Source: the human T2T-CHM13v2.0 reference genome, Homo sapiens | Assembly: GCF_009914755.1 (NCBI RefSeq) | Contig: NC_060935.1 | Length of the DNA: 64,000 nucleotides | Direction: 5' to 3' (one strand) | Shown here: positions 50,399 to 54,319 of the stretch, piece by piece | Layout: each line of letters begins with the position of its first letter | Position numbering within the stretch: the stretch's first letter is position 1 | Made by a program: the position numbers and the translations under genes | Notes under the pieces: model-generated | What the model saw: only the letters and a program-made list of their open reading frames with translations | Told to the model about the DNA's origin: nothing | Databases searched by the model: none

Positions 50399-51042
50399 TA
50401 GCAGTAAGAAAAATAAAATAACATTTTATGTGATATTATGTATATTATTAAAAATTGGATGGAAATAACTGAAATGGAGAAAACATAGGCCAATATAAGG
50501 TCCCCAGAATGGCAGGCACAAGTTTGGTGGCCGGAGAGGTTGTGGTGGAGGCGTTGCCTTATTTTGATCAAGGTTATGAAGCCCCTGGTGTGTGGAAAGC
50601 TGCTGAGGTGCTGGTGGAAGAGCAAACTCACCTACTAAGAGCTACCTGAGCTGCCTAACAGCCCCGAATTATTCTGCATTTGAAATTCTAGACAGCATTT
50701 AACCCAGAGAAGAATTAGGGGAAGGAAAATAATCCATTATAATGACTGACATAATGAGAAATGAATTTGCAAGACTGGCTGCTCGACAACCAATTGAATT
50801 GCTCAGTACGAAATGATATGAGCTTCCAGCCCCTTTCTCCCATCAAAAAAATGACACTGCTGCATGGTAAGAATGTGTAAACAATTTTATTGCCCAGTTA
50901 AAGCAGCAAGCAGTTAGAACTGAGACTCTGGAACTAATGTCACAGCATGGATATAATGCCTAGAAAGTTTACAATGAAAATCTAGTTCGTATGATTGAAC
51001 ACTCACAGAAAGAACTTCAGAAGGTAAGAAAACATATTCAAG

Positions 51043-52678
51043 GCTCTCCCTCTCCCTCTCCCTCTCCCTCTCCCTCTCCGTCTCCCCACGGTCTCCCTCT
51101 CCTACGGTCTCCCTCTCCCTCTCTTTCCACGGTCTCCCTCTGATGCCGAGCCGAAGCTGGACTGTACTGCTGCCATCTTGGCTCACTGCAACCTCCCTGC
51201 ATGATTCTCCTGCCTCAGCCTGCCGAGTGCCTGCGATTGCAGGCACGTGCCTCCACGCCTGACTGGTTTTCGTATTTTTTTGGTGGAGACGGGGTTTCTC
51301 TGTGTTGGCCGGGCCGGTCTCCAGCTCCTAACCACGAGTGATCCGCCAGCCTCGGCCTCCCGAGGTGCCGGGATTGCAGACGGTGTCTGGTTCACTCAGT
51401 GCTCAATGGTGCCCAGGCTGGAGTGCAGTGGCGTGATCTCGGCTCGCTACAACCTCCACCTCCCAGCCGCCTGCCTTGGCCTCCCCAAATGCCGAGATTG
51501 CAGCCTCTGCCCGGCCGCCACCCCGTCTGGGAAGTGAGGAGCGTCTCTGCCTGGCCGCCCATCGTCTGGGATGTGAGGAGCCCCTCTGCCTGGCTGCCCA
51601 GTCTGGAAAGTGAGGAGCGTCTCTGCCCGGCCGCCATCACATCTAGGAAGTGAGGAGCGTCTCTGCCCGGCCGCCCATCGTCTGAGATGTGGGGAGCGCC
51701 TCTGCCCCGCCGCCCCGTCTGGGATGTGAGGAGCGCCTCTGCCCGGCCGTGACCCCATCTGGGAGGTGAGGAGCGTCTCTGCCCGGCCGCCCCATCTGAG
51801 AAGTGAGGAGACCCTCTGCCTGGCAACCGCCCCGTCTGAGAAGTGAGGAGCCCCTCCGCCCGGCAGCCACCCTGTCTGGGAAGTGAGGAGCCTCTCCGCC
51901 CGGCAGCCACCCCGTCCGGGAGGGAGGTGGGGGGGTAAGCCCCCCGCCCGGCCAGCCGCCCCGTCCGGGAGGGAGGTGGGGGGTTTCAGCCCCCCGCCTG
52001 GCCAGCCGCCCCGTCCAGGAGGGAGGTGGGGGGGTCAGCCCCCCGCCCGGCCAGCCGCCCCGTCCGGGAGGTGAGGGGCGCCTCTGCCCGGCCGCCCCTA
52101 CTGGGAAGTGAGGAGCCCCTCTGCCAGGCCACCACCCCGTCTGGGAGGTGTACCCAGCAGCTCATTGAGAACGGGCCATGATGACAATGGCGGTTTTGTG
52201 GAATGGAAAGGGGGGAAAGGTGGGGAAAAGATTGAGAAATCGGATGGTTGCCGTGTCTGTGAAGAAAGAAGTATACATGGGAGACTTTTCATTTTGTTCT
52301 GTACTAAGAAAAATTCTTCTGCCTTGGTATCCTGTTGATCTGTGACATTACCCCTAACCCTGTGCTCTCTGAAACATGTGCTGTGTCCACTCAGGGTTAA
52401 ATGGATTAAGGGCGGTGCAAGATGTGCTTTGTTAAACAGATGCTTGAAGGCAGCATACTCCTTAAGAATCATCACCACTCCCTAATCTCAAGTACCCAGG
52501 GACACAAGCACTGCGGAAGGCCGCAGGGTCCTCTGCCTAGGAAAACCAGAGACCTTTGTTCACTTGTTTATCTGCTGACCTTCCCTCCACTATTGTCCTA
52601 TGACCCTGCCAAATCCCCCTCTGCGAGAAACACCCAAGAATGATCAATAAAAAGTAAATAAATAAATAAATAAATAAA
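51043..52678 (+). mobile_element. Full-length SVA retrotransposon (SVA_C/D-like)
   Basis: (CCCTCT)n, antisense Alu-like domain, GC-rich VNTR, SINE-R, AATAAA and (TAAA)n tail; perfect 17-bp TSD aagaaaacatattcaag at 51026-51042 and 52679-52695. Confidence 0.97.
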
Positions 52679-52831
52679 AAGAAAACATATTCAAGAGTTT
52701 AACGGGCAGAGAAAGAACATGCAACTCGCTGGATCTAAATTGAGAGAAATGGAGTCAAATTGGGTATCCCTGGTCAGTAAGAATTATGAGATTGAACAGA
52801 CTATTGTTCAACTAGAAAATGAAATCTATGT

Positions 52832-53164
<333 letters not shown>

Positions 53165-53343
53165 TTAAGGATCAATATGGAGAAGCAAACAAAACATCCC
53201 ATGAGACTTCTGAAAAAATTTTATAGGTCGAAGAAAAGTTTGGCTTTCACAGAAGGGATGTGAACTTTCAATGAACTATGAAGGATAACAGCATCTTCCA
53301 GAAACCATTGATATTTAAATGTTTAGAAATCATAGACTGTGTG

Positions 53344-53661
<318 letters not shown>

Positions 53662-54319
53662 AGAAATAATAGACTGTGTGGATGGTTGTAGTAATTCTAT
53701 TTGTATACCCTAGGAAAATAAAAATGTCTAGCTTGACGGTTAAAAAAAAGAAAGAACTGAAATGCAACAGTGGTTGTTTTTGGTTTGTAGTCTATAGGCA
53801 ACCAATCAATTTGTTCTTTTCAGTATTTTCCAAATTGTATTTAATGTGTGTGTATTAACTTATAATTGGAACTATATATACTTTTTATTGTTAATAAGTT
53901 AAATCATAATTTCTAAGTAAGTATTGTGGAAAACACTAATTTATACACATTATGTATTATTCTTATCTGTTTCATTTAATCGAGAACCTTAATCCCTCTA
54001 CCTTTCCCCTATTTCATCTACTTTAAACCTACCTTAGTCATTTAATGCTTTTAGATTAATGGTGAAATGACCCACTGGGGCCCAAGTCTTGATCTGATCT
54101 TGCAATTTTCAGAAAATAATGTCAAACCTGTCAATTGATTGAGATTAATCTGAGAGGGGAGAGACCAAAAGTGTACCCTGCAGATATGGCTACAGAGTAT
54201 TCTCAAAAAGTAACTAAGTTTGCTCTAGCACCTAAGAGAATGAGGGAGTCAATTAAACTCTACACTGGACATAGCCAAAAACTATTCTTCCAGAACATAA
54301 CCTGGAAGCTTTATTTAAT

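What the first reader, a model, noticed from the sequence alone, without database searches (positions are those of the whole stretch)
50685..50744. 60-nt stop-containing insert at an exon junction of the BCAS2 retrocopy: candidate fossil poison exon
Seen: between codons Glu62 (ttt gaa) and Thr63 (act gac) of the otherwise colinear BCAS2 copy lie exactly 60 extra nt: ATT CTA GAC AGC ATT TAA CCC AGA GAA GAA TTA GGG GAA GGA AAA TAA TCC ATT ATA ATG. There is no TSD, poly(A), loss of flanking bases or GT...AG ends, and the insert has two in-frame TAA. Recalled, unverified: BCAS2 exon 2 ends at c.186 (Glu62). Established: many splicing factors are autoregulated by NMD-linked poison cassette exons. 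Inference: the retrotransposed mRNA included a cassette exon from BCAS2 intron 2, so the pseudogene records an ancestral, possibly still active, unproductive isoform of this Prp19-complex subunit.
Basis: partly seen in the sequence, partly recalled or inferred. Interest (0 to 1): 0.8.

Follow-up and report, generated by a model that had tools for sequence, protein, structure and literature searches.

The report
Fossil stop-codon exon in BCAS2 pseudogene
A 60-base insert in an old processed copy of the splicing-factor gene BCAS2 is an extra exon taken from intron 2 of the living gene, so the pseudogene preserves an ancient stop-containing splice form; whether that form has a regulatory role is untested.

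Summary
Window 50685-50744 is 60 extra nt lying exactly between the exon-2 and exon-3 parts of the retrocopy BCAS2P1.

In the whole assembly the 60 nt match only itself and one other place. That place is 54/60 identical and lies inside intron 2 of the parent BCAS2 gene on contig C1, 90 nt upstream of exon 3. In the parent it is preceded by ...cttcAG. A GT follows one base past the retrocopy's boundary, giving a 61-nt exon today. Only 0.76% of 60-nt windows in intron 2 have such flanks.

Exon 2 ends at c.186, Glu62. The first TAA is shared with the parent and the second is not. Inclusion gives ...FE-ILESI-stop, 407 nt before the last exon junction, so the isoform is a predicted NMD substrate.

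The two other BCAS2 retrocopies join exon 2 to exon 3 directly.

The splice sites are weak, with a (GTGA)3(GT)7 tract abutting the acceptor.

I found no printed report of this exon. One NMD dataset lists a different BCAS2 event, involving exon 3.

Verdict: the fossil unproductive isoform is real. The autoregulatory "poison exon" function is unproven.

The parts
50467..50476 (+). 5' copy of the retrocopy's target-site duplication (AACTGAAATG)
   Evidence: Read. The same 10 nt recur at 53755-53764.
50478..50601 (+). BCAS2 exon-1-derived part of the retrocopy (5' UTR and first codons)
   Evidence: 124 aligned nt, 16 mismatches, no gaps.
50602..50684 (+). Exon-2-derived part. It carries a 10-nt deletion and ends TTT GAA (Glu62, c.186).
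   Evidence: In the parent, exon 2 is followed by gtaagt.
50685..50744 (+). The 60-nt insert: a cassette exon derived from parent BCAS2 intron 2. TAA at nt 16-18 is shared with the parent; TAA at nt 46-48 is specific to the retrocopy.
   Evidence: 54/60 identity to C1:114588300-114588359 (minus strand), with AG upstream and GT one base downstream.
50745..51042 (+). Parts derived from exon 3 (50745-50815), exon 4 (50816-50977), exon 5 (50978-51028) and the start of exon 6 (51029-51042)
51043..52679 (+). Later insertion of an SVA-type element (CCCTCT hexamer repeats, then an Alu-like part). It is flanked by a 16-nt duplication at 51027-51042 and 52680-52695. It is not part of the BCAS2 copy.
   Evidence: The family name is recalled from the hexamer repeat and was not tested against a repeat library.
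52696..52829 (+). Rest of exon 6 (52696-52759) and the first 70 nt of exon 7 (52760-52829)
53145..53346 (+). Continuation of the exon-7 / 3'-UTR part beyond an inserted Alu (52830-53144). This lies outside the annotated BCAS2P1 span.
   Evidence: parent exon-7 positions 55-263 align at 84%.
53662..53754 (+). Last part of the 3' UTR, beyond a second Alu (53347-53661), and the poly(A) remnant (53742-53754)
53755..53764 (+). 3' copy of the target-site duplication (AACTGAAATG)
   Evidence: compared.

Best explanation
BCAS2P1 is a full-length, L1-type processed copy of a BCAS2 mRNA that contained an extra cassette exon spliced in from intron 2.

The source transcript used a weak acceptor (...gtgtgtgcttcAG|ATT) and a weak donor. 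The donor was ATG|GT in the ancestor, or TGG|GT followed by loss of one G in the copy. The acceptor lies 90 nt upstream of exon 3. The transcript was then reverse-transcribed and inserted on chromosome 11.

The exon already carried the TAA at its sixth codon. The isoform therefore ended after 62 BCAS2 residues plus ILESI, far upstream of five further exon junctions. That makes it an unproductive mRNA and a predicted NMD substrate.

Shown here: the origin in intron 2, the splice-site flanks, the junction position, the shared stop and the retroposition hallmarks.

Inferred: (a) the age, tens of millions of years; (b) that the isoform was degraded by NMD; (c) that in the living gene this is most likely a low-inclusion alternative or cryptic exon defined by weak sites and a purine-rich core, not a demonstrated autoregulatory switch.
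For: -: the 60 nt has only 2 matches in the genome, itself and C1:114588300-114588359(-), at 90% identity and E = 2.9e-14.
- that site lies between parent exon 2 (C1:114592754-114592846) and exon 3 (C1:114588139-114588209).
- the parent has cttcag| before the segment and g|gtagtg after it.
- only 34 of 4478 (0.76%) 60-nt windows of intron 2 have AG just upstream and GT at +0 or +1.
- exon 2 ends at c.186. Both the 60-nt and the 61-nt versions give ...FEILESI*.
- the stop lies 407 nt before the last exon junction.
- the retrocopy is colinear with all 7 exons and carries none of the 4.4 kb and 90 nt of intron that flank the cassette.
- a 10-nt target-site duplication and a poly(A) remnant.
- 2 of 2 other retrocopies have the plain exon 2-exon 3 junction, so the insert is specific to one isoform and not a feature of the mature reference mRNA.
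Against: - The parent's canonical GT gives a 61-nt exon. The retrocopy has 60 nt, so a 1-nt indel on one lineage has to be assumed.
- The donor matches only 4 of 9 consensus positions, and the acceptor has 10 of 20 pyrimidines. Efficient use is therefore not expected.
- Nothing here shows that the exon is spliced today.
- The one NMD-isoform table I could read (PMC8361881, Sup. table 1) has a single BCAS2 row. By its coordinates that row concerns exon 3 (71 nt), not this cassette.
- The one held supplement of PMC10123112 has 0 mentions of BCAS2.
Confidence: 0.9

Rival explanations
1. The cassette is a functional, regulated poison exon. Its weak sites make inclusion rise with spliceosome or Prp19-complex activity, or it responds to a UG-repeat binder such as TDP-43. 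Inclusion sends BCAS2 mRNA to NMD, giving homeostatic negative feedback, as described for SNRPB and for SR-protein genes.
For: - BCAS2 is a core Prp19-complex subunit (statement in PMC12152634, passages seen).
- The stop is shared by two copies that separated at about 8.5% divergence.
- AG and GT signals are still present in the human parent.
- The exon has a purine-rich core (GAGAAGAA...GGGAAAGG).
- Cassette divergence is 6/60. That is near the 5.1 expected if the parent side were frozen and below the 10.2 expected if both sides were neutral. The difference is not significant (P = 0.12).
- A germline transcript carrying the exon was abundant enough to be retrocopied in 1 of 3 recorded events.
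Against: - No NMD, regulation or cross-species conservation data could be obtained.
- Seven full-text searches found no paper whose listing describes a poison exon in BCAS2 itself: plus for the term BCAS2P1. Passages were read for only two of the papers.
- The readable NMD table lists another BCAS2 event.
- BCAS2 has no known RNA-binding domain (recalled), so direct autoregulation is less natural than for SR or hnRNP proteins.
- The splice sites are very weak.
- n = 60 nt is too short to show constraint.
Confidence: 0.25
2. The 60 nt entered the retrocopy after integration, for example by gene conversion or templated repair from the parent intron, or as an unrelated insertion. It was never part of an mRNA.
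For: The 3' boundary is one base off the parent's GT. The other two retrocopies lack the insert.
Against: - The insert sits exactly at the exon 2/3 junction.
- Its 5' edge is exactly at an AG| in the parent.
- No flanking intron sequence came with it.
- It has no target-site duplication or poly(A) of its own.
- Its divergence from the parent (10%) equals that of the surrounding exon-derived parts (8.5%), as expected if all of it was copied at once.
- Splice-like flanks occur in only 0.76% of windows by chance.
Confidence: 0.03
3. The match to intron 2 is a chance or repeat-driven similarity, and the insert is unrelated sequence.
For: A high-copy interspersed repeat lies in the parent intron 136-240 nt upstream of the segment (2770 first-look candidates, 40 scored, all covering query positions 1-109).
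Against: The 60 nt alone gives 2 candidates genome-wide, both scored: itself and the parent site at E = 2.9e-14. None of the 39 repeat hits scored reaches the cassette, which is query positions 241-300.
Confidence: 0.01

Closest known systems
[quoted passage not shown]
   Same: A retrocopy preserves an alternative isoform of its parent, and mapping the extra segment back to a parent intron reveals an exon.
   Different: The captured isoform here is an unproductive, stop-bearing one of a core spliceosome gene. I saw that paper only as an entry in the reference list of PMC5470649. It is not held, so its content is recalled.
SNRPB (SmB/B') alternative exon coupled to NMD (Saltzman et al. 2011, Genes Dev; recalled, not read here)
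   Same: A core spliceosomal protein gene with a stop-bearing cassette exon defined by weak splice sites. It is a possible model for feedback through general spliceosome activity.
   Different: The SNRPB exon is highly conserved and experimentally shown to be NMD-coupled and self-regulated. None of that is shown for BCAS2.
Ultraconserved poison exons of SR-protein genes (Lareau et al. 2007; Ni et al. 2007; recalled)
   Same: A cassette exon with an in-frame stop in a splicing-factor gene.
   Different: Those exons are near-identical from human to mouse. Here the only measure is 6 differences in 60 nt between parent and retrocopy, and no cross-species data.
UG-repeat-flanked exons repressed by TDP-43 (CFTR exon 9; cryptic exons of Ling et al. 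2015; recalled)
   Same: A (GTGA)3(GT)7 tract of 26 nt lies 6 nt before the acceptor AG|, in the position of the CFTR exon 9 UG tract.
   Different: No binding or knock-down data. The one paper holding the terms BCAS2, cryptic exon and TDP-43 together speaks of BCAS2 only as an expressed splicing factor.

Membership tests
L1-mediated processed pseudogene (retrocopy) | Colinear with the spliced exons of the parent, with no introns | tested here: met
   exons 1-7 are contiguous, apart from three later repeat insertions.
L1-mediated processed pseudogene (retrocopy) | Poly(A) tail and target-site duplication | tested here: met
   AACTGAAATG at 50467-50476 and 53755-53764; A-rich remnant at 53742-53754.
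Retrocopy that records an alternative cassette exon | The extra segment at an exon junction maps to the corresponding parent intron and has splice-site flanks there | tested here: met
   intron 2, AG| exactly at the 5' edge, |GT one base beyond the 3' edge; chance 0.76%.
Poison (NMD-coupled) cassette exon | In-frame premature stop more than 50-55 nt upstream of the last exon-exon junction | tested here: met
   TAA at codon 68 in both parent and retrocopy, 407 nt before the exon 6/7 junction.
Poison (NMD-coupled) cassette exon | The inclusion isoform is present in cells and stabilised when NMD is inhibited | not testable with these tools
   No RNA-seq access. Sup. table 1 of PMC8361881 has one BCAS2 row, which by coordinates is exon 3 and not this exon.
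Poison (NMD-coupled) cassette exon | Conservation of the exon, its stop and its splice sites across species | not testable with these tools
   No other mammalian genome is held ('no relatives here'). The only evidence is a minimum age from the retrocopy's 8.5% divergence. Cassette divergence of 6/60 is compatible with constraint or with neutrality.
Poison (NMD-coupled) cassette exon | Regulated or autoregulated inclusion | not testable with these tools
   No data. Literature searches found no listed paper on this.
TDP-43-repressed cryptic exon | UG-repeat next to the exon | tested here: met
   GTGAGTGAGTGAGTGTGTGTGTGTGT ends 6 nt before the acceptor AG|.
TDP-43-repressed cryptic exon | Inclusion on TDP-43 loss | not testable with these tools
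   No data. One search found nothing relevant.

The most novel reading that the evidence does not exclude
BCAS2, a core Prp19-complex subunit, has an unreported NMD-coupled poison exon in intron 2 that is at least tens of millions of years old. It is defined by deliberately weak splice sites and a UG-repeat at its acceptor. It is still used for homeostatic or TDP-43-dependent control of BCAS2 dosage. The chromosome-11 retrocopy gives it a dated minimum age.
Probability: 0.25. Interest if true: 0.5.

Novelty: new member of a known kind. Interest (0 to 1): 0.35.

Why it matters
The case shows that a pseudogene can be used to discover and date an unproductive splice isoform of an essential spliceosome gene without any RNA data. 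If the exon is still used and NMD-coupled, BCAS2 would join the core splicing factors whose dosage is buffered by poison exons. Its UG-repeat acceptor would then make it a candidate read-out of TDP-43 loss. If it is only splicing noise, it is an ordinary example of a known phenomenon. It still corrects the annotation's reading of the 60 nt as a mere alignment gap.

Tried and rejected
- **Literature:** seven full-text searches gave no listed paper on a BCAS2 poison exon or on this retrocopy. The term sets were:
  - BCAS2 + poison exon
  - BCAS2 + nonsense-mediated + cassette exon
  - BCAS2 + cryptic exon + TDP-43
  - BCAS2 + NMD + UPF1 + premature termination codon
  - BCAS2 + unproductive splicing
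  - SPF27 + nonsense-mediated
  - BCAS2P1

  I judged most of these from listings only. Passages were read for PMC12152634 and PMC5599659 (a mouse Bcas2 intron-retention row). Both are irrelevant to the cassette.
- **Supplements:**
  - PMC8361881 gives a different BCAS2 event.
  - PMC10123112 has 0 hits in its 1 held file.
  - PMC8233366 has only proteomics rows, in a file cut when stored.
It may bear on present-day use.
  - Shemesh 2006 is not held.
- **Repeat origin of the cassette:** rejected. The repeat in the parent intron stops about 136 nt upstream, and the cassette has only 2 genomic copies.
- **Constraint test from divergence:** inconclusive (P = 0.12 against neutrality).
- **Not attempted:**
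  - Cross-species conservation, because no mammalian genome other than this assembly is held.
  - GENCODE/Ensembl transcript models of BCAS2, which could not be consulted.
  - Splice-site scoring with MaxEnt, because no model is on hand. I used simple consensus counts instead.

Full report
**1. Observation**

The window reads ...ctgcatttgaa | attctagacagcatttaacccagagaagaattaggggaaggaaaataatccattataatg | actgacataatgag....

In the parental frame (TTT GAA) the insert has TAA at its codons 6 and 16. It has no GT...AG ends, no A-tail and no flanking direct repeat.

The RefSeq table supplied with the finding leaves exactly this stretch as a gap between two BCAS2P1 blocks. The reference mRNA therefore lacks it.

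**2. Where the 60 nt come from**

A search of the window's own assembly (3.1 Gb) with the 60 nt gave 2 candidates, both scored. One is the window itself. The other is C1:114588300-114588359 on the minus strand, at 90% identity over all 60 nt and E = 2.9e-14.

A search with the first 556 nt of the retrocopy placed the flanking parts on the same contig and strand:
- exon 1 at C1:114592955-114593068
- exon 2 ending at 114592754
- exon 3 near 114588139-114588209
- exon 4 at 114587041-114587203
- exon 5 at 114582157-114582207

I fetched C1:114578001-114594500 and aligned it with the window. I then read every junction.
- All seven exons have canonical AG|...|GT borders.
- The joined exons encode a 225-aa protein.
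- Exon 2 ends at CDS position 186, codon 62, with TTTGAA|gtaagt.
- The 60-nt match therefore lies inside intron 2 (4544 nt), 90 nt upstream of exon 3.

**3. Splice signals in the parent**

On the gene's strand the parent reads ...gtgagtgagtgagtgtgtgtgtgtgtgcttcag | ATTCTAGAGAGC...TTCATTATAATG | ggtagtgtag....

The 5' edge of the retrocopy's insert coincides exactly with an AG|. The boundary cannot be slid, because the preceding bases differ.

At the 3' edge the first GT is one base further on: TGG|GTAGTG.
- Today's gene would therefore make a 61-nt exon.
- The retrocopy has 60 nt.
- Either the copy lost one G of GG, or the parent lineage gained one. I cannot tell which without an outgroup.

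Splice-like flanks are unlikely by chance. Among all 4478 sixty-nt windows of intron 2, 34 (0.76%) have AG just upstream together with GT at +0 or +1.

Both sites are weak:
- The donor matches 4 of 9 positions of MAG|GTRAGT. The gene's constitutive donors match 5 to 8.
- The 20 nt before the acceptor hold 10 pyrimidines. The six constitutive acceptors hold 11 to 19.
- That stretch is largely a (GTGA)3(GT)7 tract.

The exon core is purine-rich.

The human parent also has an internal AAG|GTAAAC, which matches 7 of 9 positions and would give a 40-nt exon. The retrocopy has GGAAAA at that place.

**4. Coding consequence**

With either the 60-nt or the 61-nt version, the parent reading frame runs ...SAFE-ILESI-stop.

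The TAA at cassette nt 16-18 is present in both parent and retrocopy, so by parsimony it was present in the source transcript. The second TAA of the retrocopy is CAA in the parent.

The stop lies 407 nt upstream of the last exon junction, with five junctions downstream of it. By the established 50-55-nt rule this is an NMD substrate. That is an inference; it was not measured.

**5. The retrocopy as a whole**

It starts at 50478, in the parent's 5' UTR, and runs through all seven exons. Three later insertions interrupt it:
- an SVA-type element at 51043-52679, with a 16-nt duplication
- an Alu at 52830-53144
- an Alu at 53347-53661

The copy continues at 53145-53346 and 53662-53741. It ends in an A-rich remnant (53742-53754) followed by AACTGAAATG, which also precedes the copy at 50467-50476. 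It is therefore a full-length L1-type retrocopy, longer than the annotated span 50487-52829.

Divergence from the parent's exons is 54 mismatches in 638 aligned nt, or 8.5%. The cassette has 6 in 60, or 10%: 4 transitions and 2 transversions. My slice left out base 52696.

Equal divergence fits the cassette having been copied together with the exons.

If the parent side were frozen, 5.1 differences are expected. If it were neutral at the same rate, 10.2 are expected. The observed 6 does not reject neutrality (P = 0.12) or constraint.

From recalled primate substitution rates, 8.5% on one neutral lineage means roughly 40-60 million years. This is an estimate, not a result.

**6. Other retrocopies**

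One search found two further copies spanning the junction; all 7 of its first-look candidates were scored.
- C1:100.24 Mb is 6.4% divergent.
- C13:78.39 Mb is 12.8% divergent.

Both join exon 2 directly to exon 3. The C13 copy lacks 3 nt at the junction.

So 1 of 3 recorded retropositions captured the cassette isoform.

**7. Repeat check**

The 389 nt of parent intron ending at exon 3 gave 2770 first-look candidates. Forty were scored: the query's own site plus 39 others, all 39 confined to query positions 1-109.

An interspersed repeat therefore ends about 136 nt upstream of the cassette. It resembles a MaLR LTR end from recall, untested. The cassette itself is single-copy apart from the retrocopy.

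**8. What is in print**

Seven full-text searches listed no paper about a stop-bearing exon of BCAS2 itself. I read passages of two; both were irrelevant.

In the supplement of Karousis et al. [quoted passage not shown]
- The exon is chr1:114576687-114576758 (hg38), flanked by 114575589-114575751 and 114581298-114581391.
- The NMD isoform is ENST00000485021.
- By length (71, 162 and 93 nt) and a constant offset of about 11,451 nt to my T2T coordinates, these are exon 3 flanked by exons 4 and 2.
- The NMD-sensitive event reported there therefore concerns exon 3, presumably its skipping, and not the cassette.
- The main text says the table holds alternative-exon events enriched on NMD inhibition.

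The one held supplement of Mironov et al. 2023 (PMC10123112) has no BCAS2. Boehm et al. 2021 has only proteomics rows.

Gene-model databases were not available, so I cannot say whether GENCODE already annotates this exon.

**9. Interpretation**

The structural claim is as good as sequence alone can make it; I put it at about 0.9. A BCAS2 mRNA carrying a stop-bearing cassette exon from intron 2 was retrocopied.

The functional claim rests only on analogy. Core splicing factors such as SNRPB and the SR proteins are buffered by NMD-coupled exons (recalled literature). The weak sites would suit a sensor of spliceosome activity. The UG tract at the acceptor is the kind of element bound by TDP-43 (recalled: CFTR exon 9).

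Against the functional claim stand the very weak sites, the lack of any report, and a different BCAS2 NMD event in the one dataset I could read.

I put a regulated poison exon at about 0.25. A low-level alternative or cryptic exon, that is splicing noise captured once, accounts for most of the rest.

**10. Verdict**

This is a real and neatly documented fossil of an unproductive isoform, and a new member of known kinds: retrocopies that record splice variants, and stop-bearing cassette exons in splicing-factor genes. Interest is moderate to low until RNA and cross-species data are examined.

Noticed in passing
window 52830-53764: The BCAS2 retrocopy continues beyond the annotated end of BCAS2P1 (52829). 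Its 3'-UTR parts at 53145-53346 and 53662-53741 are separated by two Alu insertions. A poly(A) remnant and the target-site duplication AACTGAAATG follow.
   Followed up: yes
window 51043-52679: An SVA-type element (CCCTCT hexamer array, then Alu-like sequence) is inserted into the exon-6 part of the retrocopy, with a 16-nt duplication AGAAAACATATTCAAG at 51027-51042 and 52680-52695. The family name is recalled and was not tested.
   Followed up: partly
L002 1561-1586 (minus strand); parent BCAS2 intron 2, C1:114588366-114588391: A 26-nt (GTGA)3(GT)7 tract ends 6 nt before the cassette's acceptor AG|. It replaces most of the polypyrimidine tract and is a plausible TDP-43-type binding site. Not tested.
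   Followed up: partly
L002 1520-1525 (minus strand); cassette nt 38-46 in the parent: The human parent has an internal donor-like AAG|GTAAAC, matching 7 of 9 consensus positions and stronger than the terminal donor at 4 of 9. It would give a 40-nt stop-bearing exon. The retrocopy has GGAAAA there.
   Followed up: partly
Parent BCAS2 exon 3, C1:114588139-114588209: Sup. table 1 of PMC8361881 pairs ENST00000485021 (NMD isoform) with a non-NMD isoform at an event whose coordinates correspond to exon 3 (71 nt, frame-shifting if skipped). BCAS2 thus has a reported NMD-sensitive isoform other than the cassette.
   Followed up: partly
L005 (C13:78.39 Mb retrocopy), exon 2/3 junction: The oldest BCAS2 retrocopy (12.8% divergent) lacks the first 3 nt (ACT) of exon 3 at the exon 2/3 junction. 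There is no NAGNAG acceptor in the parent that would explain this, so it is probably a later deletion.
   Followed up: no
L002 1696-1800 (minus strand); parent intron 2: A high-copy interspersed repeat ends about 136 nt upstream of the cassette (2770 first-look candidates; the 39 scored hits elsewhere in the genome are 84-90% identical). From recall it resembles a MaLR LTR end. Not identified with a library.
   Followed up: partly
window 50602-50684: The retrocopy's exon-2 part carries a 10-nt deletion relative to the parent, so its own reading frame is already broken upstream of the cassette.
   Followed up: yes
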